From assembly GCA_043228905.1 (NCBI GenBank), contig JBHGNT010000016.1, forward strand, positions 11,718,001 to 11,782,000: DNA of 64,000 bases, in the 5' to 3' direction. Positions within the stretch are counted from its first letter, which is position 1, and each line of letters starts with the position of its first letter. The notes under the pieces were generated by a model, which was not told where the DNA came from, searched no databases, and saw nothing but the letters and a program-made list of their open reading frames with translations. This document shows positions 4,016-58,700 of this stretch, one piece after another. A program made the translations under genes and the position numbers. The stretch comes from Azolla caroliniana (lineage: Eukaryota; Plantae; Polypodiophyta).

Positions 4016-4111
4016 TGTAACATTCCACACAATAGGTTTTGTAGACTTACGCGTTTCGAACTTCTCGAATATTCCGAAGTGTGGGCCAAAGTTTGATTTT
4101 CTCAATGCGAG
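4016..4111. repeat. LTR-like fragment beginning TGTAAC, split by element B (continues ~14755-14820)
   Basis: Element A coding stops abruptly at TGTAAC (4016). The TSD of B (GCGAG) joins 4107-4111 to 14750-14754. Confidence 0.35.
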
Positions 4112-4558
4112 TGTCATGATATGGCAAGACTCGAACCCATGACCTTATGGTATATGGGTCGAGCTCTTAACCATCACACCATCTATTGTAATTTGTAGAA
4201 TATTATTTTCATTTATGCTTTATTATAAGAAATTAATGTATATTCCAGATTTCTCTGGAACATTCTAGAAGCTTTAGGACTACTCCTGAGAGCACTATAA
4301 AAGGAGGCACAAGGCATTGTTTTGAACCAAATTGGTTCAACGCCAATCTTAAGCCTCTTAGCCACTTTGTACTTATCCTTCACATAATATATTAGCTGTT
4401 ATCATTATCTCTCTCTCTCTCTCATCCTCGTTATCTCTCTCTCCTCTTCTCTCTCTCTCTCTCTCTCGGGAATCTTACGCAGTCCCGTCCTCTTAGTACT
4501 AATAGTACTTCTCTTCTTTAGTACTAATTCTCTCTCTGCTTTAATACTATTCCTGATA
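4112..4558 (+). repeat. 5' LTR of element B
   Basis: TGTCATGA...TCCTGATA; TATAAAA 4296-4302; matches 14454-14749 and 35484-35928. Confidence 0.92.
4123..4183 (-). promoter_or_regulatory. tRNA-like Pol III internal promoter (A box + B box) inside the LTR
   Basis: Minus strand TGGTGTGATGG (4181-4171), a 33-nt spacer, then GGTTCGAGTC (4137-4128). Confidence 0.6.
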
Positions 4559-4560
4559 GT

Positions 4561-4574
4561 TTGAACCAATTTGG
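4561..4574 (+). promoter_or_regulatory. Self-priming primer binding site of B
   Basis: ttgaaccaatttgg is the exact reverse complement of LTR 4327-4340 (ccaaattggttcaa); there is no TGG-starting tRNA PBS. Confidence 0.75.
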
Positions 4575-5740
4575 GTCCTCAAGTCTACTTATCGTTCTCC
4601 CTCATCCTCCTACCCTTTTCCCTATACTATGGCTACTGTTAGCGCCCAAGAATATCAATCCGTTTTCTTCGAGCTATAATGCCTAAAAGAAAAATTTGTT
4701 GCCTTGGAACAAGAAAACCAACGGCTGATAGGGGATCTGCAACAAATCGCTCTAGAAAAACAACAAACGTAGCAACAACATGGGGAGTTAGCGTTACGGG
4801 TACAACAACTCGAAGCAGAGCATTGCAACAACAAGGATCAAGTCCCCAAGGATTTCATAAAGAGCCGAAGATTAGACTTCCTATGAAATTTAATGGAACA
4901 CGATCGCAATTAAGGGGATTCCTTAATCAGGTACGATTAGTCATCCAAATGCATCCTTCCCGATACCCCACTGATGCATCCCGAGTCGGCCTAATAGGCA
5001 CGTTGCTTAGTGGCTCAACCTTAGCATGGTTTGCTCCGCTTCTAGAAAAACAATCGCCCTTGCTTAATAACTTTGAAGATTTTATTAGTGAGTTTAAAGC
5101 CTGCTTTGGAGACACCGACAACATCAGGACGACAATCAACAAGATCCGACGATTGCGTCAAGGCGATCGTCCAACCTCTGCCTACACGACGGATTTCCGT
5201 CTACTCGCCTCAGATATACCCTGGGATGATTAGGCACTAATGGAGCAGTTTTGCTACGGCTTGCGATGTAAAAGATTTACTTTTAACCTTCCTCGAAGAA
5301 CCAAAATCTCTTACAGAGGCAATTAGTCGAGCGGTTCGATATGACAACCGCCTTTTCGAACGGCGTTCCGAACGTCAATTACAAATACCACGCTCTAGGC
5401 CGGAGCCCACATACGCCTCAGTCGCGGCTAAAGCGTTCGCACGCGACGTACCTCAAGCAAATACTCCGACACCGATGGAGATTGACACCATGTGTCGAGG
5501 TGGCCCGTTATCGGAAGAAGAAAAGCAACGACGCCGTGTGAATCGATTATGTCTTTATTGCGGTGGACCAGGGCATATCGCAATCAATTGTCCCCATAGG
5601 CCAAGAAGACAGGTAAATCAAATTGTAGCATGTACTAAACCCGAGTCAATTCTTCCCTTAGGAGTGTCTGATAGTATTAATAGTACTAATAGCCCAAGTA
5701 TCTCAAACAAATTTGAAATCCTTAGTCAATTAGATGAAGA

Positions 5741-5785
5741 GTTAAACGATTGAGTCCAGCCAAAATACGAGCCGTTTAGTTGGAC
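5741..5785 (+). promoter_or_regulatory. Putative -1 ribosomal frameshift signal (gag-pol) of B
   Basis: G TTA AAC just before the gag stop, followed by a stem gtccagcca (5754-5762) / tagttggac (5777-5785). The protease ORF is in the -1 frame. Confidence 0.6.
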
Positions 5786-6847
5786 AACCCTAGATCTGTA
5801 CAACCCATTAGTGGTTCCATTCCCTCCAAGCAAGTTAGCAATGTGTTCCTAACCCAAGTCATGGTTAGTACTAAAAGTACTCCCCTAGTACAAGTCCTAA
5901 CACTTTTAGATTCCGGAGCCAATTCCTGTTTCATGGATCGAAATTTTCCCCAAGCTTCTCAGATATCCTTAAGAAACTTCCTTGCCTTGCATCTGTAGTA
6001 GTCATTGATGGTCGTCCCATTGCTTCCGGGAATATTGTAGAAGAGTCAGAACCCATTCAGGTTGTCCTAGGTAGTTTTGTGTGTGTAGTATCATTTAATA
6101 TAATTAGTAGTCCAGAGCATCCCATTGTCTTGGGATTACTTTGGTTTGAACTACATAATCCAGACATACATTGGAGAACAAGAGAAGTCCGATATCGACA
6201 ACCCCAAGGATCTACTCATCGAGTTTCGACCATTTCACTACGTGAACTATGCGAAGAAGGACACAAGGAGGCAATGTTCCTATTCGCCATATCAGTACAT
6301 CCTTCCAGCAATATTAAGGAGGAATCCTTAGTGCAACTTCTGGCGAAATATCATCCTTATGCCGACGTATTTGACAAGGTAAAAGCTGGTACTCTTCCTC
6401 ATCATCGTCCCTACGAATCCCTATGATTTACAACCAGGAGTAGAGCCACCATGGGGACCAATCTACAACTTGTAACCCACCGAGTTAGAAGTCCTTCGAG
6501 CCTACATAGAGGAGAACTTGGCAAGCAGGTTTATTCGTCATTCGAAATCTCCGGCCGGAGCACCCATCTTCTTTGTCAAGAAGAAAGATGGCTCACTTCG
6601 TCTGTTCGTTGATTACCGTGGCTTAAATAAAGTCACCATCCGGAATAGGTATGCACTTCCTCTTATATCAAGTCTTTTAGAGCAAGTTAATGGTGCCAAG
6701 TTTTTTACAAAAATCGATCTACGAGGAGCGTATAACCTCGTGCGGATCCGACCGGGAGATGAATGGAAGACCACCTTTCGCAAGCGGTATGGGCATTTCG
6801 AATATACTGTTATGCTGTTCGGTCGAACCAATGCACCCGTAGTCTTC

Positions 6848-6887
6848 TGTAAACGTAAGTGTTTGCAGAAGCGTAAAATAGAGAACA

Positions 6888-6954
<67 letters not shown>

Positions 6955-9900
6955 AGAACACAATTTCAAAATTATATCAAGCCTCCTTAACAACACACTG
7001 TGCTAAGTAGCACTATTTATACAAGTCCTCTTGGGACTGACAGAAGTACCATGTACTTCAATGCTCACACGAGCATCTGACACTTACTACGAGACTATAG
7101 CTACCTAGTGGTCTATCCTATACTAGGCTTCCGATTGGACTGCCGGTTACGGATTGCACCCGGCCTCCACTGCTTGCCGGTTCGGTTGCTCACCGTCATA
7201 CCGATCCGTTTCGCCCGATCCGTCTCGCTTACCGGCTCCGGCTTATTCAGCCGATCCGGCTCCGGTTGAGCTTGCCGCTCAACACTCCCCCTCAAGCTCA
7301 ACCTGAGGTGGGGTCGTAGTGTCGACCTTTGTGGCAGTCGGTTCTTCCAACCGACTTCTCCTGGCGACACTCCGCCTTGCTCGCGCTCCTCGTCCGGTTC
7401 GGTCCCGTTTGCCGCGACCCCTTTGGTTCTGCGTGCCTCGACCCTCTCGGTCAGTATGTCTGCTCAATCGGCCCATCTCAGCAGTCACGTTGCTGTGACT
7501 CCGGCGCTTGCCGATCCGTCGGTTCTCCCACGATGGCATCGACTTCCGCTGTGTCCGTGTCCCCTTGGCCTTCAGTCGATCCGTCTCATCCAGATCCACC
7601 TGTTGATTCGAGTCAGATGTCTCCGACTCGTTTCGGCTCTTGTCAGAATCGGTACACTCCGATTCGACTTCCGGCGTCAGGCCTCTCACCACATTGGACC
7701 ACTTCCGAGTCCTGGCCTTCTCCATGCTTCCCTCGGCTTCTTCAGCCGGTGAACCGAAATCGAATTCTTCATTCGACTCTGTATCATGGTCAGTACCGTC
7801 GTGATGACCTCCGCACAACATGCGCTTCTCTTCCTGAGTGCACAACTCTTCTTCACAGCCGCTTGCTCCGACCTGTTCGGATGTGTCGACTTCCTTCGTC
7901 GACTCAGCTTCCTTCAGCTTCTTGTCTCCTCTTCTTCCGGCTCTCCTCTTACTGACGGGTTCAACAGGTTTTTGGCCTTTGCCCGTTTCGGTAGAGACTT
8001 TGCCCTTGCTTCTCCCCCTCAAGTGCGACACGTCGAGATGCTGAATACCAAGCATGTCGGTAAAGTGCTGCAACTTGTCCCATCCGAGCGGCTTGGTGAA
8101 GATGTTGGCAACTTGCCGATCCGTATGAACATACCGTAGGTCAACTTCACCGTTCAGGACCCGCTCACGCACGAAGTGGTAGTGCACCTTGATGTGCTTT
8201 GTGCGTGCATGGAACATAGGGTTCCTGGCGAGCTGCAGGCTGCTCATGTTATCGCAGTAAATTGGGATCGGGGTCGGTACCTCGATCCATATGTCTCGCA
8301 ACAGTTGCCGAAGCCAGATGGCTTCATAGGTGGCAACGGTAGCGGCCCGGTACTTAACCTCAGTGCTTGACAAAGCCACTGTGGGCTGCTTCTTGCTGCT
8401 CCACACAACGGCCGCGCTACCTATGGAGAACATGTATCCGGAAGTGGAGCGGCGATCAGACGCATCGCCGGCCCATTCAGCATCTGTGTAACGGACAAGC
8501 TCTTCGGGTATACCTCGCCGGTATAGCAGTCCCCGGTCCTTAGTGCCGCTGACATACCGTAATATTCGTTGCGCGCACTGAAGGTGCTCCATGGTCGGCT
8601 TCTGCATGAACTGGCTTACCATGCCGACCGGATAGCTGATGTCGGGTCAGGTGATGGTTAAGTAGATCAGGCTTCCGACAACCTGTCGGAACCGTTTCTC
8701 ATTGCAGGCCGGTCCGGAGTTGGGACGGAGCTTCTGGTTCCGGTCCAGGGGTGTGGAGACAGGTCGGCAATCCGTCATGCTGAACTTATACAACATATTC
8801 AACACGTAATGTCGTTGTGAGAGCAATATGCCGTCAGGGGTCCGGATCACTTCGATCCCAAGAAAATAATGAAGGTCCCCCAGGTCCTTCATTTCGAATG
8901 CTTCCGACAACTGGGACTTGACGCGGTTGATTTCGGGAAGACCCGGTCTGGTGATGACTAAATCATCCACATACAAGAGTATACATACCGGACCGTTAGA
9001 GCCTTGTCGGATGAACAACGAAGAGTCCGACTTAGAGACAACAAACCCCAGCTTACGCAACCGGTGCGTGATCTTCGTGTTCCAAGCTCGGGGGGCTTGC
9101 TTCAAGCCGTAAAGCGACTTCTTCAGTCGGCATACCGCCGACTTGTTCATCTCCGAGTGAAATCTGGGGGGTTGAGTCATAAAGACTTCTTCTTCAAGCT
9201 CACCTTGAAGGAAGGCGTTCTTCACATCCATCTGGTGAAGATGCCACCCCCTTGCCGCAGCAACCGCCAGTACCACACGAACCGTCGTCATCTTCGCCAC
9301 AGGAGCGAAGGTCTCGTCGTAGTCGATTCCGTGGGTCTGCGCGTATCCCTTCGCCACTAACCGGGCTTTGTACCGGTTAACAGAACCATCGGCGTTGTAC
9401 TTGACCTTGTACACCCACTTGCATCCGATCGGTTTACAGTGACGGGGAGGATCAACTAGGTCCCAAGTTTCGTTGGCATCGAGCGCCCGCATTTCTTCAT
9501 CCATAGCGGCATGCCAATTTGCGTCCTTTGCCGCTTCTGCGTAGCTCTCTGGCTCATGCACTTCTGTCACCTTAGTCATGTATGCATAATGATGCACCAT
9601 GTATTCATTGTACCCGTACCGTATGACGGGATCCTTCTGGTGGGTTGATCGGCGCAACGCACCATCACCTGATTTGAGGCCTTTCTTGGCCAATTCGGTA
9701 TTCGTTACTGAAGATCTGCCTTTCTCCTTTCCGGAGTCGGATACACACCGATCCGACTCATCGTTGCCGGTTTCGAATTCCGGCATCTTCCTCTTCCCCT
9801 TCTCTTTGCGCGTGAACCGTTTCCTCGGTTCCTTGCGTGGGGAGAGCACGGCAGAGTCTCCACCACTTGCCGTCTCTTCATCCAACTGGTCCAACCGACT

Positions 9901-12808
9901 CAGTCGCTCGTTCGGTCCACTCAACCGTAACGATTCCGGACTCTCATCTTGAGTCTCGGCTTTATCATCCTCTGCCAGGGCTGATTCAGGCTCATTGGCC
10001 TGATCTTCCGGCATTCGGTTGGGATCGGAAGTCGGAGTCGGTACGGAGTACCAGGATGCCGATTCATCAAACTCGACATCCCGGCTAATTCGGACTTCCT
10101 TCGTCCGGGGGTTATAGCACTTATACCCCTTTTGCTCTTGAGCATAGCCGACTAGGATGCATTTTTCCGATTTTGCATCCAGCTTTCTCCACTTCTGATC
10201 CGGCACATGCACATACGCTATGCTACCAAATATCCGAAGGTGTCTTAAGTTCGGCTTGCGCCCGAAATACAGCTCATGAGCTGACACCTTATCACCAATG
10301 CGGTTTTATATGTAGACGGCCGTCTGGACCGCCTCCGCCCAGTAGAACCGGGGCATGCTCTTCTCCTCCAGCATTGCCCTTGCCGCTTCGACGAGTGTCC
10401 GGTTCTTCCTTTCGGCCACACCGTTTTGCTCCGGTGTGTATCTGCAGCTGAACTCTCGCTGAATTCTCTTCTGCTGTAGATAACTAGTGAATTGGCCGGA
10501 AAAATATTCCTTTCCGCCATCCGACCGAAGGCATTTGATCTTCCTCTCCGATTCCCGTTCCACCATCTTCTGGAGGCTCCGGAAACAGTCGAAGACTTCG
10601 CTCTTCCGCTCAATGAGGTAGATCCAAGTATGTCGAGTAAAGTCATCGATGAAGGAGACGAAGTATCGGCTCCCGCCAAGGCTTACACTTTGTGCCGGTC
10701 CCCACACATCCGAATGGATGAGATCGAGCTTGTTACGGCTTCGGTTCCGTTCGGTGGGGAATGGAAGCCGGTGTTGCTTCCCAAGTTGGCAAGCTTCACA
10801 AATTTCGGCTCTCCGGCCGCTGAACTTCGGCAAACCGAAAACGACTTGTTTCGTTTGCAAGTCTTGAAGCCTCTGGTAGTTGACGTGGCCTATCCGCTTA
10901 TGCCACAGGTCGATGTCCGACTCGACCTTCTGTCGTTCCGCGAACAGAGCGGTGCCAAAGTCATTGGTGTTGAGGATAAACATCCTCCCGTCTCTGCGCC
11001 CTTGCGCAATGACTTCGCCCTCATCCTCAATGAAGCACCTGAGGTGCGTAACCCGCACCTGCATCCCCTGGTCGACAATCTGACCGACGGACATCGGGTT
11101 CTTCGTGATTGTCGGAACGTGTAATACGTTCATCAGCTTCCCTTTCTGTCCTACGTGGCTTAGAGGGACTTCTCCGACGTGCATGATTGGGTGAGGAGTG
11201 TCGTCTCCGGTTTCGACTACTCCTGGTTGATCCGGTTTCTCCAGAAAGGAGAACCACTCTTTGTGGCTTGTCATGTGGTTCGACGCGCCGGAATCAACAT
11301 ACCACACTTCCTCCGTTTTGGAAGTGGTCTTCTTCATTGAGTTTGCCTTGTGATTCATCACCAAGGCTGGCCCCTTACCGGCATTTCCGGTTCCGGATTC
11401 TCCTGATCCGTTTGCGTAGTGCGAGTTTTGCCGGCCATCCTTATTGGTCTTGTCGGATCCGGATTTGTCCGAATGGGCACGCTTTCTCCAGCAGTCACTT
11501 TCCTTGTGGCCTTTTTTGTCACAGTACCAGCATTCCGTAGCGGATTTGTCTTGCCGGCCTCCGGCACCGCCTTGACTCCCCCTGCTTGTGGAAGTCCCGG
11601 AACTGCTGTCGGCACGCTCATAGTGCCTCCGTTCCTGCTCTTGCCGGCCGCCTCCATCGCGTGCCGACCCACCTCTTCCACCACGCCCACGGAGCCGATC
11701 CGTTCCCGTGTACAGCATTTGGCTGTCCGGGGATGCACTGGTAGATGCACCGGCGTGGTTCTCCTCTACAAGGAGCATCGATTGTAAGTCGAAGAATGAG
11801 GGGGTATTCTCCCTTGTACACACCGCAATCTGGAACGCTCCGAACTTGGATGCCAGGCCTCCGAGACATACCTGCACCATCTCGTCTTCTTCTACGGTAA
11901 CATTGATAGAGGCGAGCGAGTCGCAGATCTCCTTTATCCGGCCCGTGTAGTCTGCCACGAACATGTTCTTCTGTCGAACATTGCTCAACTCCTGTCTGAG
12001 TTGCAGCTTCCGGGCAGTGGTGCTTGCGGCGAAAACCTTTTTCAGGTTCCCCCAAGCATCCTTCGGTGTCTTGGCGTCACGGATGTGGCTGAGCAACTGA
12101 TCGCCGACACTGGACGCGAAGCAGTACATCACCTTGCTTGCCGCCTGTTCCCATACCGGGAAGTCCTTGTGTGCCGTGTCTGGCGCCGCATCATTCGCTC
12201 CTTCGACATAACTCCAGTACCCGTGTCCAAGCAGGTACTGGTGCATCTGGTAAGACCAGGATGCGTAGTTGCTCCTCTCGAGCTTCTCCACCGGGAGCGA
12301 CGTAGCCATGCCTCTATCCATGTCTTCTACTGTGTCTGTTTTTGACCTGTTAGGGTTTTCCTCTCAAGAGTAAATGTCTGCAGCAGAGGTTCTCAACCCT
12401 CGTGCTCTGATACCATGTAAACGTAAGTGTTTGCGGAAGCATAAAACAGAGAACAACACAGAGAGAGAGAGAGAGAGCAGAACACAATTTCAAAATTATA
12501 TCAAGACTCCTTAACAACACACTGTGCTAAGTAGCACTATTTATACAAGTCCTCTTGGGACTGACAGAAGTACCATGTACTTCAATGCTCACACGAGCAT
12601 CTGACACTTACTACGAGACTATAGCTACCTAGTGGTCTATCCTATACTAGGCTTCCGATTGGACTGCCGGTTACGGATTGCACCCGGCCTCCACTGCTTG
12701 CCAGTTCGGTTGCTCACCGTCATACCGATCCATTTCGCCCGATCCGTCTCGCTTACCGGCTCCGGCTTATTCAGCCGATCCAGCTATGGTTGAGCTTGCC
12801 GCTCAACA
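6848..12808 (-). mobile_element. Ty1/copia element C, full length
   Basis: LTRs 6848-7284 and 12416-12808; TSD TCTTC; PBS-iMet 12404-12415; PPT 7285-7296. Confidence 0.96.
7279..12321 (-). pseudogene. Gag-pol polyprotein of C (one frame, two premature stops, C-terminal extension)
   Basis: ORFs 10306-12321, 8647-10287 and 7279-8622 are in the same frame. Gag CCHC, VDSGAS, integrase, RT YVDD and RNase H are present. Stops at 10306-10308 and 8647-8649 fit CAA>TAA and CGA>TGA. Confidence 0.92.
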
Positions 12809-14824
12809 TCTTCCAACACATGGCAAATGATATATTCAGAGACCTCTTGGATATTTGTTTGATCATCTATCTGGATGATCTAGTGATTTATTCGAAAACC
12901 CAGGAAGAGCACGATTCTCATGTACTATTAGTACTAAATCGACTCCGCAAGAATGGTCTTTATGACAAGCTAGAAAAATGTAGCTTTGACTGCAAACAAG
13001 TGGAATTTCTAGGCTACGTTATCTCCTCAAAGGGCATCTCCATGGATCTAGCTAAAGTCCAAACTATGCTAGAGTGGCAAATTCCACGGTCAGTACGAGA
13101 TGTACAATGTTTTCTAGGTTTTGCTAACTTCTACCGCAAGTTTATACAAGATTACTCGAAGATTATTTTACCTCTCACACAACTTACAAGGAAGGGACAA
13201 GCATTTCTTTGGTCCAATGAAGCGGACATGGCTTTTCGGCATCTTAAGAAAGCCTTTACATCATCACCTATTCTAGCTCATGTGGATACAAGCAAACCAT
13301 TCATCATGGAGGCCGACGCATTAGATTTCGCCCTCGTAGCATCCTTTCTCAACAACAAGATACAGACGAGTTACATCCTGTGGCTTTCCATTCGTGCAAA
13401 TTCGATGTTGCAGAAATCTACTACGAAATACATGACAAGGAGTTATTAGCCATCGTGGATTCATTTGTGCAATGGAGGCATTTTTTGGACGGCTCTCCAC
13501 ATCAAGTCATCGTCTTCAGTGATCACAAGAATCTTTCTTATTTCCAGAATGCTCGTGTGCTAAATCGACGGCAAGCTAGGTGGGTTCAATTCCTCACACG
13601 TTTTGATTTCAAAATCGCATATTGACCAGGGAAGCAGCAAGGAAAGGCAGATGCACTATCACAATGTTCATTTCTTGCACCTCGTCTTGGTGATCCAGCG
13701 TTCGATAATCAAAAGCAAGTAATCTTGGGACCAACACAATTGCACACAACGCGGATTTTTCACACCCCAATGGATTCCCAGATTATCGACACCATACGTG
13801 CGAACTTGAAGATGGGCAATTTTGCTCAAGACATTCTGGCGCACACTGATACCTCTCAGGCATCATGTACCTAAGGCGCACACTGATACCTCTTAACCAT
13901 CGTCGATCGATATACAAAGATGGCACATTTTGTGTCGTGTACTAAGGCCATCACTAGCGAGGAAACCGCCGCCCTTGTCATGCGTGAGGTATTTCGGCAT
14001 CATGGCCTCCCAGACAGTATCATTAGTGACCGAGGACCGCAATTTGTCTCCAAATTTTGGCAGCATCTCTTCAAGATGCTCAAGTTCTCTTGCAACCTCT
14101 CCTCTGGCTACCATCCTCAGACCGATGGGCAGGTGGAACGAACAAACCAAACGCTGGAGCAATACCTCTGGTGTCTCCTGAGTTATCAACAGGACGATTG
14201 GGCCAAGATTCTCCACTTTGCGGAGTTTGCGTATAAGAATATTGTTCACTCCTCGACTCGAGTCTCCCCATTCTACACTTATACTGGTTCTCATCCTCGT
14301 TGGTCGGTGATCGACACCCCAGAGCTACCTACCAATCCTCGTGCCGAGGATCATTTGGAGAGACTACGCAAGATCCAGATGGATCTCTCTACTCATCTTC
14401 GTCATGCTCAACAGACACAGAAGACTTATGCGGATCGTCATCGGCTTCCCTCCTGTATATTCCAGATTTCTCTAGAACATTCTAGAAGCTTTAGGACTAC
14501 TCCTGAGAGCACTATAAAAGGAGGCACAAGGCATTGTTTTGAACCAAATTGGTTCAACGCCAGTCTTAAGCCTCTTAGCCACTTTGTACTTACCCTTCAC
14601 ATAATATATTAGCTATTATCATCATCTCTCTCTCTGTCATCCTCGCAATCTCTCTCTCGGGAATCTTACACAGTCCCGTCCTCTTAGTACTAATAGTACT
14701 TCTCTTCTTTAGTACTAATTCTCTCTCTGCTTTAGTACTATTCCTGACAGCGAGAAGGATCAATTTCAACTCCTTGTTCGGTTATGAGATGTCCAAGATA
14801 AGTAATTGATACCTTGTTCGGTTT

Positions 14825-32825: not shown

Positions 32826-35058
32826 TGTCACGACCCAAGCTTCAAAGACGATGTTGATTTGGAAGAAAAGAATATAATAACAAAGAAGAAGACAATAATA
32901 GGACAAAAAGACAATAATTTCTATTACCGAAAACCAAGATTTCAAGGTTGCTGAAGACTGGTGTTAAACCGAAATGGTTCAATACTAAGAAGATCTTCGA
33001 CTAATATAGTGTACATCGGATTGCGCATGATCGCCATTTGGCATACATGTTATGTGCCACTTGGCATACACGCATGCATGCTATTTGGTGGTCACTTACT
33101 GTGTCTAGTGCCCCTAATTCTTGAATAATAATAATATGAAAATACATTTATTAAGATAAATATGTGTAATGGTTAGAGTGTAAGACCGTTGCCTAAAAGT
33201 ACAAGTTCGAATCTTGATATTGACATTTTGTGACATCATCCTCCTTTGGCGACGAGTTCCATGAGTGGCAATGCATGAACTAGGTTTTGGTTTATGGGGA
33301 TAACGAGGATGAAAATCTTGTATAAGTTTAGAGGCATTAATGATGTTCGTTGCAGGTTCCCATGTTCAATCCGCAGGCGTGTATCCAAGACAATCTAGAT
33401 AATATAGCTTATTGTGGATGATCTTGGAGTCCAAAATAGCTTCTACTTCATATTGGGGTCCTTCAGCAAACTGAACAGGAGGTAGTGGTGGAATAACCCG
33501 ATTTGGGATAGAACTTGATGTCCATGGTTCTAGCAATGAAACATGAAATACTGGATGAAGACGCATATGTGAAGGTAGGTCCAGATGAAATGCAACATCG
33601 TCCACGTGATGACAGATTACAAATGGACTTAGACGTTGGAAATCCAATTTGTTACATGGTCGAGTAGTTTTCACATTACGACGGAATAACCATACATAAT
33701 CACCAACTTTAAACTTAGGGTCCTCAAGTCTAGAATCTAAGTGATGTTTATCTGCCACCTTCTTGTACTTGGCTTGAGGATGAAGCAAATTATAGGAAAG
33801 GTTGGCTTGAATTTCTTTGAGTTGTTTTAGACAATCCTTGACCACGAGATTGTTTGGGACTTTTGGACATTCGAGCATCATCCATCGAGGATGATATCCA
33901 GTGTTTCCAAAGAATGGAGTGAATCCCGTAGAAGAATGGATTGAATTATTGTAAGCAAATTTTGCCATATATAAGAAATTCATCCCATCATCTTGTTGAT
34001 AGTTGATAAAGCAACAAAGATATTGTTCTAATGTTTGATTTGTGCGTTCTATTTGACCATCATTTTGAGGATGGTAGCTTGAAGATAGTTTACGAGAAAG
34101 TCGAAGGATCTCAAGTAAGTGTATCCAAAACTTTGCAATAAATTCTGGCCCACGATCACTAATGATTTCATCTGGAAGGCCATGGTGCTTGAAAACTTCT
34201 TGCATAACAAGACTTGTTATTTCCTGACTAGTAAAAGTCTTTCTACATGGAAGAAAATGTGTCACTTTCGTAAAGTGATCCACCATTGTAAGAATAGCAT
34301 CATAGCCTTCAGAAGATGGGAGATCTATGATGAAATCGATAGAAATGGATTTCCACAGACCATTTGGAATGGGCAATGGGTGCAACAAACCATATGGTCG
34401 ATGTCGAGGCATCTTTGATTGACAACATACATCACAAGTAGAAACATAGTCTATGACAAATTGACGAACCTGAGGCCACCAATAGTTTCGGGTTATTGGC
34501 TCTAATATTTTCAAAACTCCGAAATGTCCAGCTAATGGTGAATAATGGCAATGTTGCAAGACTTCAAGTCAAGAAGGTTCATCAGGAATATAAGTACGTT
34601 TGTTTCAAAAAAGCAACCCATCATGCCCATTGAAATTCCCATAATCCATGCGAGAAAACTTGGAGCGTGAACAAGAAGCATGATCTGGAACAATGTGGTC
34701 TAAAATATCTTGTGCAAAATCATCTGAACCAATGCTCGAGCAAATAGAATCAAGAAATTTTGAATCTAAATTTGTCTTAGAAACCAAGATTAAAACATTA
34801 TTGAAGACTGGTTCAACGCAAAATATCAATATCAAGATTCGAACTTGTGACCTTTAAACAATGCTAGTGTACATCCGATCGTGCATGATCACCATTTGGC
34901 ATACATGCTATGTGCCACTTGGCATACATGCACGCATGCCATTTGGCGGTCACTTACTGTATCTAGTGCCCCTAATTCTTGAATAATAATAATATGGAAA
35001 TATATTTGTTAATTAAGATAAATGGATGTAATGGTTAGAGTGTAAGATTATTGTGACA
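32826..35058 (-). mobile_element. Gypsy chromovirus G (B-related), internally deleted
   Basis: 3' LTR 32826-33235 (TGTCAC...GTGACA); PPT ~33236-33248; integrase + chromodomain ORF 33366-34559; rearranged 5' LTR ~34802-35058; TSD cttgt/cttgc. Confidence 0.88.
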
Positions 35059-45512: not shown

Positions 45513-46309
45513 TAATCCACTAAAGGAAAGTTCCACTAAAATGTAAATTTAGGGCCTTGACCAAGTAGCTAGTTCCTTCCTTGATGGAGCTCCCTTCTTC
45601 TGCAACTCCCTTCTTCTGCCTTTTTCATGACGACAATCCATTTTCCCTAGTCTCTTCACCTATTGCGCAAGTGTGTCCTTCGACAACATATGCACTACCT
45701 TCTCCTCCTCCAAAAGCTCACTAGCAACTTCCTTCATTAATGGTTCTACACAATAAGGTGTAGGGCTAGGTTGGGTCGTTACAAAGTTAGAGGACTCAAA
45801 GAATTGTTATATGAAGTGTTCAAAAACACAGTTATTTTGCATGCCTAAATCACGCACTTGGCCAACTAATTTGTTATTTTGGGTAACATTGCCTAGTTCA
45901 ATGCACTCTTCCACAAGCAAAGAATTAAGCTAATTTGAAGGAGATATCTAGGCAAGTGTTGTGACATGTGAGAAAGAGAGAGAGAGAGAAAGAGAGAGAA
46001 TAGAATAAGATGAAGATAGAAGGTAGAGAGAGAAAAAGAAGACTTGAAACGGAAAGGAGTTTATATTATAAGAGAACAAGGGTTACAAAGATTAGGCTAA
46101 GGGGCTGAACACTGGTGTTGAACTAAATGAGTTTTGATGAATGAGTAGACACCTATTTATATGTCCTTATGGAGTATTCTAGAATGTTCTAGAGTTTTTT
46201 AGATATTTATGATATTTAAGATAATCATAGAATATTCTAGAATGTTTTAGAATACTCTAAATATCTTATAATAACTAATAATATAATTCTTGTAAATTAT
46301 ATATTGTAT

Positions 46310-48318
46310 TGTGAAATGCTCTCAAGAATTGCCCCCTTTCATTATGTCTCAAGTTACATTTTATAGACTCTCTCTTAGCGTGGAGGGTGTTCTCCCGCTC
46401 CAATTAGCTCTACTAATTATGGGGCTTGGTGGGGGCCTAGTTTGGGTGTGGTGCATGAGGCTTGGTAGGGGCCTAATTTGGGTGTGGTCTATGTGTGGTG
46501 CATGGGGCTTGGTAGGGGCCTAATCTAGGTGTGGTCCATGTGACCACCACAATTCCCCCTTGTAAAAAAAAAGTTATTGTGCAGTCGAAGTGCGACGAGG
46601 CGTGGACGACGGTTCTAGACGGGGGGATGACACAGGCGTGGGCGTAGGCATGAGTGTGGGCGGGGGCGGTGGTAGTTGATGGAAGGGCTTCATGCGAGAC
46701 TGGTGAGCAAAGGTAGGACGGTTGTTGGAGGCGCGGCGGAGCAGGTATGTAGTGTCGTGTATCTGCTTTTGAACTTCGAAGGGACTGATCCATCGGTGCA
46801 TGAGCGATTCGTTGAGACCGCGACGACGGATGGGGAAGTAGACGAGGACTTTGTCACCGACGTGGTATTGATGGTCGACACGGCCTATATCGTGTTGTCG
46901 TTTTTGGCGTAGTTGTGCCTGGTGCAGGTTGCTCGTGATGGCTTTGCGGAGGAGGGGCTGGAGTTGTTGTAGGTGGGACCACCAAGACACTGCGTGAGCG
47001 TGGAGTTGTGTGGTTGGTTGCGGGACTGCCACTTCTGGGGGTAAGCGCGGGTCCCTTCCGTAAAGGGCCCGAAATGGGAGCTCAGAGAGGGAGGCAGCGT
47101 CAGCTAATTGGACGTTCTGCTTCTGTTGGTGATTCTGCCACTTTCGGTAGTGACGCCGAATGTGGCCATAGTTGTTGCAGTAGAAACATTTGGGGCGTCC
47201 CTGGCTGTCTCGTTCGGGCAATGCACGCTTGGCACGTAATTGCGCATTCTGGATGTCGATGTCCATGGGAGTGACGGCTGGTATAGTGTTTGTATGATCA
47301 TGACTGAGATTACCTGGTGTGTGCATGTCGTGCGCGTCTGCAGCTTCGATGCGTTGGGCAGTGAGGATGGCTTCGTGTAGTGTCGTCGGGCCTTGATCGT
47401 GTACACGGCGGCGGAGGTCATGTCGTATACACGGCCAGAAAAAAAACAACTTCATGTCCTCCGACATGTTGGCGTCAGCCCAGCGTAGGATCTGCACAAA
47501 ACGAACCGCGAACTGGGTGATGGGTTCGCGTGGTTGTTGGGTAATTGACTCAAGTTGTTGTAGGGCCGTTTGGCGGGAGTCTTGATGAGCAAAATTCCGA
47601 ATCATGGCTGCCCGTAACAGATCCCAGTCGTTGCGTGTCTCTTCGGGTTGTTGTACAAGCCATGTTGTCGCGATATTCTCGAGGAGTGTCTTCATCTCCA
47701 TTGCCTTCCGAGGGTGTGGCCACTGGTGGTAACTGGCCACCATTTCGAAATGATCCAGCCAAGAGAGGACGTCTTCCGATGGTAGGCCGGAGAACGGTTT
47801 TGGGCGAACTCGAGAGTCCGGGAGATTTTGTTGTGGCTCGGATCGTGCTGAAAGAAAGGACAACATGGCTTGGTTAGTATGGTTAACTTGTAAAATGATG
47901 TTGGACAGAGCTTGAACCAGTTGGTCGATTGGCGATGTGGGCTGGTGTCCTTGATTGTGTTGTAGGAATTCCGGATTCATCGAGTTTGCGTTGTCGTCGT
48001 TGTTGTCGTGTTGCATCGTGGCGGGCGTTGTTGGGGTCGTGAGTTGGGGTGGCTTTGCCCGTCTTCTCCACCAAGATGTGAAATGCTCTCAAGAATCGCC
48101 CCCTTTCATTATGTCTCAAGTTACATTTTATAGACTCTCTCTTAGCGTGGAGGGTGTTCTCCCGCTCCAATTAGCTCTACTAATTATGGGGCTTGGTGGG
48201 GGCCTAGTTTGGGTGTGGTGCATGAGGCTTGGTAGGGGCCTAATTTGGGTGTGGTCTATGTGTGGTGCATGGGGCTTGGTAGGGGCCTAATCTAGGTGTG
48301 GTCCATGTGACCACCACA
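46310..48318 (-). mobile_element. Short gypsy-type element K (2009 bp), no PR/RT/RH/integrase core
   Basis: 242-bp LTRs 46310-46551 and 48077-48318 (one difference seen); 4-bp TSD GTAT; PBS TGGTGGAGAAGACGGGC (48073-48057, tRNA-Ala-like); PPT 46552-46561. Confidence 0.94.
46574..48016 (-). CDS. Gag fused to the integrase C-terminal (GPY/F) domain, 480 aa
   Basis: PKPFSG...WLDHFE capsid-like region, CFYCNNYGH knuckle, then PFRALYGRDPRLP...RQKRQHD...VGDKVLV...WISPFEV. Confidence 0.82.
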   Translation of the reverse strand: MQHDNNDDNANSMNPEFLQHNQGHQPTSPIDQLVQALSNIILQVNHTNQAMLSFLSARSEPQQNLPDSRVRPKPFSGLPSEDVLSWLDHFEMVASYHQWPHPRKAMEMKTLLENIATTWLVQQPEETRNDWDLLRAAMIRNFAHQDSRQTALQQLESITQQPREPITQFAVRFVQILRWADANMSEDMKLFFFWPCIRHDLRRRVHDQGPTTLHEAILTAQRIEAADAHDMHTPGNLSHDHTNTIPAVTPMDIDIQNAQLRAKRALPERDSQGRPKCFYCNNYGHIRRHYRKWQNHQQKQNVQLADAASLSELPFRALYGRDPRLPPEVAVPQPTTQLHAHAVSWWSHLQQLQPLLRKAITSNLHQAQLRQKRQHDIGRVDHQYHVGDKVLVYFPIRRRGLNESLMHRWISPFEVQKQIHDTTYLLRRASNNRPTFAHQSRMKPFHQLPPPPPTLMPTPTPVSSPRLEPSSTPRRTSTAQ

Positions 48319-48499
48319 GTATATGTTACCATAATTGTTAAAGGTTTAACATGTATACCAAGATATTGTGGGTTCAAATCCTTGTAAGCCAAAATGTTTG
48401 TCATCATGACATTATTTCCCCTTTTCAACGACGAGTTCCTCGAGTCATAAAGAAGGACTTCGGACTTCGCTTATGTGGATATTTGTTGTGAATAGCAAT

Positions 48500-53225: not shown

Positions 53226-55790
53226 CATATATTGTATCAAATACAAAATATAAAATACAATATATATGGAAATGGCTAAACTAATTACACAAAACTAGCA
53301 TAAAACCTGGACCAAGAGAGGATAAAGGCCCCAAGGCCTTTTTTTGTTTATATTTTGTCCCATCTATGTGAAAGCTCCCTTTGAGAGCTTTCTAGACATA
53401 TATCTTCACTATATATTTGCCCCCAATTTGAAGGGTTATAGGCATTTACATTATCTTTATAATTTTTGGTCATTGGCCATGTGTGAACATGGCCAAATGA
53501 CCTAAAAGTTACTTATCAATAAAAAATGGTCCCAAATCTCAAATAACAAGATAAGGACTTTTGGCAGCAAGGGTTTCCTCTCCATTTTTCTGTATAGTTT
53601 TCTCTACTATAGGACAATGATGCTTGGCCATGATGCCAAGCAACTATAGGACAATCATGATTGGCCATTACTTGGCTAAACTATATGGCTCGATTCTAGA
53701 ATCAGAATTGAGTATATGGGCAGAGTGGAATGGCTGCCGTTCAGTTGGACAGGCAGGCTTTCGAAAGGGGTTCACAACTTTGGATCACACATTGACCCTC
53801 CAGGCCCTTATTGAGGAGGGCAGACCACATAATAAGAGGATTTAATGCTGCTTTGTGGATTTCCGAAACACTGTTGACACTGACACGTGCTCGGCTTATG
53901 CAGCAGCTAGAAAACCTTGGTGTTCCTACAGATATGCAATGGGGAATCTATGCACTCTATGAATCCATGTCAGGAAAAGTGCGGTCTTCTAAGGGTTTGT
54001 CAGAGGCGGTGGCTAGCACAGTCGGAGTGAAGCAAGGATGCCCACTATCACCCACTCTCTTCGGTCTCTATATAGATGAGGTATCACATTACATAGAGAG
54101 ATTCGGGGGTTCCTGGCAGGCATAGCTATACAAATATTACTATATGCTGATGATATTGTGCTGATTTCTGACTCTTCGAGGGACTACAAAGACATCTAAA
54201 TGTCTTGAACTATTTTGTATAGACAAAGGTTTGTCAATCAACATGGATAAAACTAAAGTGATGGTGTTTAACACCACTCAAGCATGGGTAACAAGATCAG
54301 AACCGGAATTCTTCTTGGGAGAGGAAAAGGTGGAATACACATGCTCCACATACCTAGGCGTAACATTTACAGGGCCTAGGTTCTCCTTACAGGAGGCTGC
54401 TTGTGCCCAACTTTGTCGTGGATATGCAGCCCTTGGTGCTCTCAAGAGACAATGTGCACATTTGCCGTTCCAAGAGCCACGAACTCAGCTATGGTTATTT
54501 GATGCACTTGTCACATCAACTCTTCTCTATGGAGTAGAAACATGGGGACTGAGTCTTAACAAGGCAAATCATTGGAAAGATTTTGAGAGACCTTTAGTGT
54601 CAATGATTGCCCGCATGATAAGGAGCAAAGCATCAGTGCCCCACGATAAAATCCGGGCAGAGATGGGAGCTGCACCTATAATCACAGAGGCATTGTTCTG
54701 AGCAGTGACATTTATCCAACGTCTTTGGGAGCTCCCTAAAGAAAGGTACCCAAGCTTGGCACTTATGTCGTCAAGACAACTGGCTAAAAATGGAGACATT
54801 CATTGTTGGTATGCTGAAATGCAGCAATGGTTCGAGTCACATGGCATGAGTATAGATGCACTACCCCCATTCCAATATAGCTTGAACTATCCCCATCTAA
54901 ATATGACCAAAGTGGAAAAAAAATAGAGTGATCCGAACTGATATTATTAACTTGGAAAACAAGATAACATGGATTGCCCCAAAATATCACTTGGTACGAA
55001 GATGGCCCACTATAAGACACTTCTTACACACATCGGAGGATGGATTCATCATCAGGCCACCTTATATAGACATACATCTATCTTACGCGTTGCGCAATGT
55101 GATAGGGCAATTGTGAACTTCATCACATCAATTACAAATTGAGGTAAGCAGATATACACGAATACCTCTAGAAGAAAGAATTTACCAATTGTGTCATCAA
55201 GGAGTGGAATCTGAAGAACACTATGTTTTTCACTGTAGTGTCTTTTATAAAATCAGAGGGGGATACCATTGCCTCATTAAACAAGGCTTTGGCCCGCTAC
55301 GCAAGGTAATGGAATATGAAGACCAATGGTGCCTAGGACTTTTTTTGCTAGAGCTCAAGAGACATCGGCAAAAGTTGTTGAAGAATACAGCCACACAAGG
55401 TCATCCACAAAGAACAATCACAACTTTCATTAGGCCCATCACTCCTACTAATGCTACAAGTCAATCAAGGGATACACAAATGGGATCCCGACCAAGACAT
55501 AACAAAGGGGTTACAATTGATCGGGCAATAGTAATTTGTTTTGCACGTAGGCCCCAGCCCTAGGGATCGGCAACGGTTCGGTTTAGGCTTAGCCAGTTTG
55601 GCCTGATCCAAGACAAACCGGCTAAGCCTAAACCATTTACGAAATCTCAAACCTGAGCCGAGCCCAGCCACAAACCGGTTTAGCCTAAACCGGTTTGTGA
55701 ACCGATTTGGTAAATGGCTTGTAAACCGGTTTCCAAACCTCCCTCTCTCTCTCAGATGATCCACTATATACTATACATTGTACAAGCTCT

Positions 55791-58700
55791 TGTTAGGTGT
55801 AAAGGCCCGTAGTTCACAAATTAGGTAATTATTCGTATATGTGAACACATTGTTCACTTGGACAGGACACCTCCTTTTATAATGTGAACACACCACTTTC
55901 TATGTAAGGTTAACTAATATAATAACCTTCTTTTTTCTTGTGTACCAATCAAGGCGGTTGGGTACACCAAAGATCTGTGTGTCTCTACTCTCATCTCTAC
56001 TACAGTCCTGTTTTGCTGAACGTCATCTCTCAATAGCTGATCCGTCAAACATCCCTCTTTACCTTTAACTGGTATCAGAGCCAAATTTCTTTTCTCTACT
56101 TTGCTGTTTTTCTTTAGATTCAGAATCAGCAGAAAACACAGATTTAAAAAATAAAAAAAAATAAAAAATAAAAAATCTGTCTGACCCTTTTCTATTGGTA
56201 TTCTGCTCAATTTCTGAAGGCATCTGTCATAAATCTTGGGAGCAATGGCCTCCACTTCAGCTGAAGTGAAAAACCTCTTTGAAATCAAGAGATTTGATGG
56301 AAAAGGTTTCGAATTATGGAAAGAGCGTATGCTGGGCATCCTCTTTCTAAGAGATTGTGAAGATGCTCTTGTAGAAACGAAACCAGAGAGCATGGAAAAT
56401 GATGCTTGGAACACTCTGAATAAGAAAGCCATTACATATATTAAAATGGCTGTTTCTGATGAAATTCTTGTAGATGTAAAGGGCTTGACTACTGCCCATC
56501 AAGTTTGGGAGAAACTTAAGAAAACTTACGAGAATACTACTCCTGTGAATCAGGTGCATTTGATGAGAAAACTTGTCAGTATGAGGCTTGATGAGTCGAA
56601 AGGTGCAACAGAGCATCTATCTTTATTCACAGGTACTCTCTCCCAACTACAAGATTCAGGATTACCAGCTTTTGATGACAAGCTCAAAGCTATCTTCCTA
56701 CTTATGACTTTACCGGATTCGTGGGAAACATTAGTTGTTTCACTATCTAATAGCCCCACCTTGACCTTCGATGGTGTGCGGGGCTCTATTCTCAGTGAAG
56801 AGATTAGAAGACAATCTAGCAGAGAAGGTAGTGGTTCAGCATACAATATTAGGGGGAGATATGATAAGAGGAACCCAAATGTAGGACAAAGAAATAGAAG
56901 TAAGAGTAGAGGGAAAGGAAAACAGCAAGATATCACTTGCTATCATTGTGGCCGTAAAGGTCATAAGAAACCTGATTGTAGATATTGGAAGATGGAACTA
57001 GAAAGGAAGAAGAATGTTGGAGAGAAGAAAAACAAAGAGGATAAGTTTAATACAACAGAGAAAGCTAATATGGCTTCAAATGTTATCATTGAAGAGCTAT
57101 CTGGTGAAGATGGTGATGTACTTTGTATTACAGGTGATGCCTTTATAGCTCATGTTCAAGACATGCAAATCACCAAAACAGATGTTATTGATGCTTTATT
57201 GTCAATCGATGATGGATTGACACAGACATGGATAGTAGACTCTGGGGCTTCGTTTCATGTTACTCCATGTTTGGAGTGCTTTACCACATTTGATGCAGGC
57301 AGTTATGGAAAAGTTTATCTTGGTAACAATAGTGCTTGCAATATTGATGGTATTGGAACCATACACTTGTCTTTGGATAATGGTCAAGAGCTTGTGCTCA
57401 AAGATGTTAGGTATGTACCTGGCATAAAGAAAAGTTTGCTATCTGTAGGACAGATGGATTTGCATGGTTACACCACATTATTCGGTGGTGGATTATGGAA
57501 ACTAAAGAAAGGATCTATGGTTATTGTGAAAGGTTGCAAAAAGGGCACTCTGTACTGTTTGCAATGTAAAGCTTTACCTGGAAAGTTTCTTGCTATTGCT
57601 GAATTCGACTCTCGTTTAGAGCTTTGGCATAAGAGATTAGGACATATGAGCCAAAAAGGACTTGAAGTCCTTTCTGCTTTAAAAAGATTTGATGTTAAAG
57701 GATCAAAGCTGGTTTTTTGTAATGATTGTCTATTTGGCAAACAAGTGAGAAATTCTTATTATTCTGGTATCTCTCGTAAACCAAATGTGCTAGATTTGGT
57801 GCATTCTGATGTATGTAGCATGCCTGTAAAATCCTTGGGCGGTGCTGCATATTTTATTTCCTTTATCGATGATTATTCTAGGAAGATTTGGGTGTACTTG
57901 ATGAAAAGAAAAGGTGATGCATTTGATGCATTTAAATCTTTTCATGCATTTGTGACTACTCAAAAAGGGACAAAACTGAAATGTCTCAGAACAGATAATG
58001 GGGGTGAGTTTACATCTGCAGAATTTAAGTCTTATTGTGACTTACATGGTATTAAAAGAGAGCTTACTGCTCCATATAACCCTTCATCAAATGGGGTGGC
58101 AGAAAGGTATAATAGGACCTTGTGTGAGCGAGTACGATGCATGCTGTCCACAGCTAATCTCCCTCATGAATTTTGGGGAGAAGCATTAAAAACTGCGGTT
58201 CATATATGTAATCGTTCTCCCAACAAGTCCTTAAAAAATGGAATCCCTGAGGAGGTTTGGTCTGGCAAACCAGCTTCATATGACCATTTACGAATTTTCG
58301 GTTGTGATGCGTTTGTACACATTAGAAGTGAGCTGAGAAATAAGCTCGATGCTAAGTCCACCATGGGCATTTTTATGGGCTATGGTGATGAAGGTGAAAT
58401 GGGCTATAGGATTTGGTTACCTCAGTCCAGAAAAATTGTACGCAGCCGGGATGTTGTTTTTAATGAAGAAAAATTGCTGAAAAATGCTTGTTCCTCTGTT
58501 GGGAACTCTAAGAGCGTTACATTTCAGCAATTACAGCCATCCACAAAATCTGAAAATAAACCTCATGATGCTATACCAAAGGTTGAATATGATGGTCAAC
58601 CGGTTATCTTTGAGCCAGAAGAAGTTGGACAGCAAAGAGATGCTCATGAAGATATTGGTCAACGAGATGAAGGTACTGAAGAACAAAATATAGATGTCGA

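What the first reader, a model, noticed from the sequence alone, without database searches (positions are those of the whole stretch)
4296..4574. tRNA-independent self-priming structure (Tf1 type) in a plant gypsy element
Seen: just after the 5' LTR, where a PBS belongs, is ttgaaccaatttgg (4561-4574). It is a perfect 14-nt complement of LTR 4327-4340, which lies ~30 nt downstream of TATAAAA (4296), i.e. at the predicted transcript 5' end. The site is half of a palindrome (ttgaaccaa-a-ttggttcaa, 4322-4340), and related motifs occur in G (~32963-32981) and N (~46117-46138). Known: S. pombe Tf1 primes with the first 11 nt of its own mRNA, and this is predicted for the Tf1/sushi group. Inference: B self-primes. 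It is notable that an element needing no tRNA primer carries a tRNA-like module in its LTR.
Basis: partly seen in the sequence, partly recalled or inferred. Interest (0 to 1): 0.75.

Follow-up and report, generated by a model that had tools for sequence, protein, structure and literature searches.

The report
Self-priming chromovirus that misprimes on itself
This broken jumping gene, like hundreds of relatives in the same genome, has a copying start site that matches its own end repeat and not a tRNA end, so it likely primes itself as already predicted for its group; the copies also show misprimed, fold-back insertions that a small hairpin in the repeat may help to prevent.

Summary
In detail: 4561-4574 complements 4327-4340. 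The family-wide match is 12 nt (4329-4340 with 4561-4572); the last two pairs are private to this copy. The element is a defective chromodomain-family Ty3/gypsy, likely Tcn1 (Tf1/sushi group). Self-priming is already predicted in print for that clade (Neumann 2019: 83% of 1500 elements). Genomic support is strong but indirect. Primer site and PBS change together in five variants in this genome and in one distant relative. The primer site starts at C|A exactly 33 nt after TATA in three families. The bases just past the PBS are hypervariable (16 of 24 closest pairs differ; 0.8 expected). I had no RNA data, so the start site and the cut are inferred. Not found in my paper searches: integrated fold-back copies in which the PBS runs on into inverted U3. 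They make up 24 of 728 junctions in this hairpin-bearing family and 39 of 185 in a family lacking the hairpin. The palindrome may therefore mask the primer site, but this rests on few families. The scan earlier noted self-priming in other gypsy lineages and genomes; my look-ups showed none on this family.

The parts
4112..4558 (+). 5' LTR of element B (TG...TA, decayed from CA)
   Evidence: 89% identical to an uninterrupted family LTR
4128..4181 (-). antisense A-box-like and B-box-like (tRNA-like) motifs in U3; role unknown, not needed for priming
   Evidence: no Rfam tRNA match
4296..4302 (+). TATA box, 33 nt before the predicted start
4322..4328 (+). U3 arm of the hairpin, a second copy of the PBS 5' part lying upstream of the predicted start
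4329..4340 (+). predicted 12-nt self-primer at the transcript 5' end (C|A start)
   Evidence: start and cut inferred
4341..4348 (+). conserved R motif after the predicted cut; can pair with the U5 end and the GT spacer (5 interrupted pairs)
   Evidence: only one-sided changes
4559..4560 (+). 2-nt GT spacer between LTR and PBS
4561..4572 (+). primer-binding site, complement of 4329-4340
4573..4577 (+). hypervariable tail beyond the PBS; in this copy its first two bases extend the match to 14 nt
4643..5750 (+). gag, broken by stops
   Evidence: Pfam Ty3_capsid, Retrotrans_gag, zf-CCHC
5751..6847 (+). 5' part of pol up to the inserted element
6848..12808 (-). nested Ty1/copia element interrupting pol (ends approximate)
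12809..14453 (+). rest of pol, with two deletions; the second removes the integrase end, chromodomain, PPT and the first 125 nt of the 3' LTR
14454..14749 (+). truncated 3' LTR; 5-bp target-site duplication at 4107-4111 and 14750-14754
32964..32975 (-). decayed primer site in a 3' LTR of related family G
46118..46128 (-). decayed primer site in a 3' LTR of related family N

Best explanation
Element B is a defective copy of a chromodomain-bearing Ty3/gypsy family (likely Tcn1, Tf1/sushi group) whose PBS matches its own R region, and the family likely primes minus-strand DNA with the first 12 nt of its own RNA. Shown: the complementarity, its covariation, the fixed TATA spacing, the hypervariable tail and the fold-back copies. 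Inferred from Tf1: transcription starts at A4329, the 5' 12 nt pair with the PBS, RNase H cuts after A4340, and RT extends through the GT spacer into U5. Inferred here: the plus strand copies the primer, and extra bases at its 3' end (non-templated, cap-templated or upstream-templated) are fixed just past the PBS. Because the plus strand holds both primer site and PBS, these sometimes pair and prime a copy of U3, which gives integrated elements with an inverted U3. The upstream arm of the palindrome is absent from the 5' end of the RNA but present in plus-strand DNA and in the 3' repeat, where it would mask the primer site.
For: Covariation: at PBS positions 8-11, 504 of 528 cells are Watson-Crick pairs in 132 LTR+PBS units, against a shuffled mean of 403.5 and a maximum of 430. 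Five primer/PBS variants occur in this genome. A sixth, with a changed core, occurs in metagenome locus L342 at 66% RT identity. Of 30 loci picked only by a variant PBS, 22 had a locatable R and 18 of these carried the compensating base. TATA-to-primer distance is 33 nt in 88 of 89 B, 24 of 24 G and 26 of 27 N LTRs, always at C|A, though the primers are 12, 12 and 11 nt. PBS position 12 is T in 86 of 87 copies; position 13 is T 68, G 10, C 7, A 2. The tail differs in 16 of 24 disjoint closest pairs (0.81 expected; control C/T run 2 of 24; highest of 599 background windows 5). Tf1 RT adds non-templated bases and copies the primer (PMC11042837, PMC3185545, passages). The PBS does not begin with TGG. 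Predicted primer:PBS pairing is 0.64-0.94 in six family copies when the RNA starts at the primer, and 0.00-0.11 in the four B and G copies when 20 nt of U3 are added. An uninterrupted family copy has a chromodomain (E 1e-13). The 31 homologues with a visible organism name are 16 vertebrate, 8 fungal, 4 algal and 3 amoebozoan, none a seed plant.
Against: No RNA evidence for the start site or the cut. The 132 units are related, so covariation amounts to about five independent changes, and part of the sample was picked by PBS pattern. Four of 22 variant-PBS copies lack the compensating base. In the window copy itself, predicted pairing is only 0.47 from 4329 and 0.11 from 4330, and still 0.78 from 4320 with the palindrome included. 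Only 40 host tRNA sequences of 12 types were compared. The third duplex of the Tf1 'pretzel' was not established. No tree with named Tcn1 references was built. The hairpin idea rests mainly on B against N; G has the strongest hairpin yet 1 fold-back in 11.
Confidence: 0.88

Rival explanations
1. The PBS binds an internal fragment of a host tRNA; its core is complementary to the common T-loop sequence.
For: A 9-nt complement to the T-arm of tRNA-Asn, 16-17 nt from its 3' end. Half-molecule tRNA primers exist in copia lineages (PMC6317226).
Against: The match needs a zero spacer and stops at 9 nt, while the own-R match is 11-12 nt. R follows every PBS change. In L342 the T-loop-like core is replaced on both sides. 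The published half-tRNA primers are cut in the anticodon stem.
Confidence: 0.04
2. The primer is self-derived but comes from the 3' copy of R, or from a second packaged RNA, rather than from the 5' end of the same RNA.
For: The sequence occurs in both repeats. An earlier unchecked scan note (e1-7857552) proposed this for an animal lineage. Sequence alone cannot separate cis from trans pairing.
Against: The site begins at a fixed initiator 33 nt after TATA. Variation starts at the base just beyond that start. In B and G the 3' copy is predicted to be locked in a hairpin.
Confidence: 0.06
3. The complementarity is a by-product of DNA fold-back that keeps rewriting the PBS from R, and priming works some other way.
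For: Fold-back does occur. One copy has a PBS extended by about 9 nt of R/U3 complement before normal internal sequence (L104).
Against: Fold-back needs the complementarity to exist first. It offers no primer, and it does not explain the exact stop at the predicted start site in three families.
Confidence: 0.02

Closest known systems
Tcn1 clade of plant chromoviruses (Neumann et al. 2019, PMC6317226: passages and one supplement row; Novikova et al. 2010, PMC2864245: passages and section 6)
   Same: Chromodomain integrase, separate overlapping gag and pol frames, about 5.7 kb, 5-bp TSD, no tRNA PBS, LTR complement of 10 nt or more just after the LTR; self-priming predicted for 83% of 1500 elements.
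   Different: In what I read, the prediction is a BLAST complementarity call, with no covariation, start-site spacing, PBS tail, hairpin or fold-back analysis. The per-element table (Additional file 1) was not among the files I could see and may list this family. Novikova 2010 found no self-priming site in the clubmoss member.
Tf1/Tf2 of Schizosaccharomyces pombe, Tj1, Tosmo (PMC7175516, PMC11042837, PMC4600332, bioRxiv 10.1101/2022.12.06.519325: passages only; the Levin primary papers were not held)
   Same: 5' end of the RNA complementary to the PBS; RNase H cut; a neighbouring duplex; primer copied into the plus strand; non-templated 3' bases.
   Different: Primer of 12 nt in B and G (11 in N and Tf1); a U3 hairpin arm over the primer site; third pretzel duplex not established; only Tf1 is shown by experiment.
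RLG1-RLG3 gypsy families of Physcomitrium patens (PMC7466625, passages)
   Same: A dominant chromodomain gypsy family with smaller related families in a genome of similar size.
   Different: No sequence comparison was possible, so identity with these families is not tested. The passages seen do not mention the PBS (0 occurrences).

Membership tests
Chromovirus (Ty3/gypsy) | PR-RT-RH-IN order with a C-terminal chromodomain | tested here: met
   Met in family copy L227. The window copy is 91-92% identical in its internal pieces but has lost the chromodomain by deletion.
Tcn1 clade | RT/IN grouping with Tcn1 and fungal/vertebrate Tf1/sushi elements | tested here: inconclusive
   Named homologues are vertebrate, fungal, algal or amoebozoan, none a seed plant; no tree with named Tcn1 references.
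Tcn1 clade | Chromodomain keeps the aromatic cage | tested here: met
   Tyr, Trp and Tyr at the expected places, read by eye; the cage positions are recalled.
Tcn1 clade | Overlapping gag and pol frames, 5-bp TSD, 5.5-9.4 kb | tested here: met
Tcn1 clade | Host is a moss or clubmoss | not tested
   Host not identified; a non-seed plant is inferred only from the clade's published range.
Tf1-type self-priming | PBS complementary to own LTR and not to a tRNA 3' end | tested here: met
   tRNA set incomplete (40 sequences)
Tf1-type self-priming | Primer lies at the transcript 5' end | tested here: inconclusive
   Fixed 33-nt TATA spacing and C|A start; no RNA data.
Tf1-type self-priming | Three-duplex 'pretzel' structure | tested here: inconclusive
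   Central duplex supported. A 5-pair interrupted neighbour duplex is possible in 125-132 of 132 units per pair, with one-sided changes only, and the motifs were used to find the units. Third duplex not established.
Tf1-type self-priming | RNase H cleavage releases the primer | not testable with these tools
   Weak hint only: R-derived pieces begin at LTR position 229-230 in four independent rearranged copies.

The most novel reading that the evidence does not exclude
Self-priming carries a built-in cost. The plus strand can prime on its own R, so 3-21% of LTR-PBS junctions in the genome belong to integrated elements with an inverted U3, some of them palindromic solo units with U3 at both ends. 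Families B and G carry a second half-PBS just upstream of the start site as a guard hairpin: it is absent from the RNA 5' end, but it masks the primer site in plus-strand DNA and in the 3' repeat, and it allows only correctly started transcripts to prime. The hypervariable PBS tail is a genomic record of the copied primer end.
Probability: 0.4. Interest if true: 0.62.

Novelty: new member of a known kind. Interest (0 to 1): 0.42.

Why it matters
Self-priming has been shown by experiment for yeast Tf1; in the papers I could read it is only predicted for plants. A family with at least 728 LTR-PBS junctions turns that prediction into a well-supported one with an exact, testable start site and cut site. 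It also gives genome-only signatures (covariation, TATA spacing, hypervariable tail, fold-back copies) that can be applied to any suspected self-priming lineage. If the guard-hairpin reading holds, it explains a design constraint on tRNA-independent priming. The inverted-U3 insertions could also be a source of hairpin RNA against the family's own promoter (speculative).

Tried and rejected
RNA evidence: no RNA holder listed; this says nothing on expression, and no reads were laid. The 14-nt primer from 4327 is rejected as the family state. The palindrome as a requirement for priming is rejected: N lacks it and pairs well. Homopolymer slippage as the cause of tail variation is mostly rejected: the control run differs in 2 of 24 pairs, and 15 of the 16 differing tails are not simple T-run length changes (read by eye). 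The tRNA-like U3 module as a real tRNA gene: no hit. Breakpoint patterns to locate the cut gave few cases: 4 matches at position 230 (3 rearrangements, 2 independent, both with microhomology; 1 an intact LTR), 1 at 218 (a U3 deletion), 0 at 236, and 30 at 224 (the 15 fetched were variant LTRs). One search excluded most N fold-backs through a pattern error and was redone. The nearest-neighbour test was faulty and was redone. Of 78 metagenome loci, 25 had a repeat pair; three showed a 12-nt self-complement by automatic search, and L342 was resolved by hand. Four primary Tf1 papers were not held. Paper searches for fold-back or inverted-U3 products, a hypervariable PBS tail, or a tRNA-like LTR module in moss chromoviruses listed nothing on point (listings only). 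Subscription papers, including the 2008 moss chromovirus paper and Butler 2001, are not covered.

Full report
1. Observation. All coordinates hold. The 5' LTR is 4112-4558, then GT, then the site at 4561. The 14-nt complement is far beyond chance: none of 20,000 resampled LTRs reached 13 nt. The element spans 4112-14749 with a perfect 5-bp target-site duplication. It is broken by stops, a nested copia element and two deletions. The 14 nt is not the family state: 16 of 30 close copies stop at 12 nt, 4 are longer and 10 shorter.

2. What the element is. The first look of a DNA search gave 3,763 candidates, and 728 exact LTR-PBS junctions exist. An uninterrupted copy has overlapping gag and pol frames and a chromodomain. 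Of 120 homologues listed, 31 show an organism: 16 vertebrate, 8 fungal, 4 streptophyte algal, 3 amoebozoan, no seed plant. This fits the Tf1/sushi group and, in a plant, Tcn1, but no tree with named references was built. Families G and N in the window are relatives, about 71-73% identical in internal DNA.

3. Covariation. Five primer/PBS pairs occur in the genome: B main, two B variants, G and N. In 132 units, PBS positions 8-11 pair in 504 of 528 cells, against 403.5 after shuffling R among units (maximum 430 of 2000 shuffles). The copies are related, so this reflects about five changes, not 132. In 30 loci chosen only by a variant PBS, R was found in 22, and 18 had the compensating base; 4 did not. 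Metagenome locus L342 (66% RT identity) has an 11-nt primer with a different core, the same following motif, the same GT spacer and a matching PBS with one decayed base.

4. Where the primer starts. In LTRs where primer and TATA could both be located (89 of 100 B loci, 24 of 30 G, 27 of 30 N), the primer's first base lies 33 nt after the TATA start in 88, 24 and 26, always at C|A; in L342 it is 32. This puts the start at 4329. It is an inference: no RNA reads were available.

5. The tail. PBS position 12 is nearly fixed (86 of 87) and variation begins at 13. Among 49 copies of one young subfamily, 16 of 24 disjoint closest pairs differ in the next five or so bases. The expectation from background divergence is 0.81, a C/T run just downstream differs in 2, and the worst of 599 background windows differs in 5. 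Tf1 copies its primer into the plus-strand 3' end and adds non-templated bases (PMC11042837 and PMC3185545, passages). I infer that the tail records this step. The two extra pairs in the window copy belong to the tail.

6. The tRNA rival. The PBS does not start with TGG. Against 40 distinct tRNA sequences of 12 types, from 30 of 62 listed loci, the best complement is 9 nt to a T-arm. The set is incomplete, but covariation with R and the changed core in L342 make a tRNA fragment unlikely.

7. Fold-back copies. In some copies the PBS continues as the reverse complement of U3 back to LTR position 1. In B main, 25 exact and 11 one-mismatch junctions were found; 29 of 30 fetched continue as inverted U3, giving 24 of 728 exact junctions (two look like one insertion assembled twice). 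B variants give 4 clear and 1 uncertain of 88, G gives 1 of 11, and N gives 39 of 185, with 12 of 12 fetched confirmed, two from one locus. The other side varies: a full LTR, or part of R-U5 joined to internal sequence at many different points, so most are separate events. Target-site duplications with at most one mismatch flank 5 of 11 B units tested, and also L091, L062 (by eye) and L287. At least these were likely inserted by integrase as products of reverse transcription. They show that PBS and R pair during copying; they do not by themselves prove an RNA self-primer.

8. The palindrome. Its upstream arm lies before the predicted start. Median hairpin energies with DNA parameters are -7.2 (B main), -3.6 (B variants), -10.4 (G) and -0.5 (N) kcal/mol. 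Adding 20 nt of U3 drops predicted primer:PBS pairing to 0.00-0.11 in four B and G copies but not in two N copies; the window copy is less clean (0.47 from 4329, 0.78 from 4320, 0.28 from 4312). The family without the hairpin has the most fold-backs (Fisher p 6e-14 if copies are treated as independent). This fits a masking role. It is in effect a comparison of two families, G is too small to tell, and N's shorter primer is a confounder.

9. Known and new. Neumann et al. 2019 predict self-priming for most Tcn1 elements from complementarity of 10 nt or more, so the headline is a new member of a known kind. Their per-element file was not among the five supplements held and may bear on this. My searches listed nothing on the tail, the fold-back copies or the hairpin, but the primary Tf1 papers were not held and subscription journals are not covered. 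The tRNA-like U3 stretch has an A-box-like motif in B, G and N and a B-box-like motif that met my pattern only in B; it is not a tRNA gene by Rfam or ARAGORN and is absent from L342.

10. Verdict. Self-priming 0.88; interest 0.42; guard-hairpin and mispriming reading 0.4, worth 0.62 if true.

Noticed in passing
L091 (G000:C1:12398457-12399150), L062, L100, L122, L287: Palindromic solo units: full LTR, GT, PBS, inverted U3, with TG...CA at both ends and a 5-bp duplication. They could be mistaken for MITEs.
   Followed up: yes
window 4128-4181 (-), about 33165-33215 and 48320-48400 (+): Antisense tRNA-like A-box and B-box motifs at the start of U3 in families B, G and N; best partial likeness to tRNA-Ile(UAU) among 40 tRNAs; possibly a Pol III factor site; unexplained.
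   Followed up: partly
L104 (G000:C9:8706609): Otherwise normal element whose PBS runs about 9 nt further along the R/U3 complement before internal sequence resumes.
   Followed up: partly
L196, L197, L203, L204 (G000:C5:17.99-18.02 Mb); L213-L215: Tandem arrays of tRNA-Lys(UUU)/Asn genes at about 300-370 bp spacing, and clusters of other tRNA genes.
   Followed up: no
window 46310-48318: A small element with 242-bp direct repeats and a gag-like frame (46574-48088, minus) is inserted into the U3 of the N LTR.
   Followed up: no
window 55790-60731: Copia element with identical 279-bp LTRs and an unbroken 1396-codon frame; a very recent insertion.
   Followed up: no
L093:252-351; window 46170-46270: N-family U3 carries a long AT-rich inverted repeat (weak miRNA-model matches below cut-off).
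   Followed up: no
L069 (G000:C11:9639830-9641096): Tandem expansion of a 40-60 bp U5 stretch inside an N-family LTR.
   Followed up: no
L338, L344, L311, L326, L298 (metagenome loci): More distant relatives (53-59% RT identity for most, 46% for L326) with 8-12-nt self-complement after the LTR; L326 has a hairpin over the site.
   Followed up: partly
protein P0035: A relative at 70% identity carries a dUTPase domain (PF00692).
   Followed up: no
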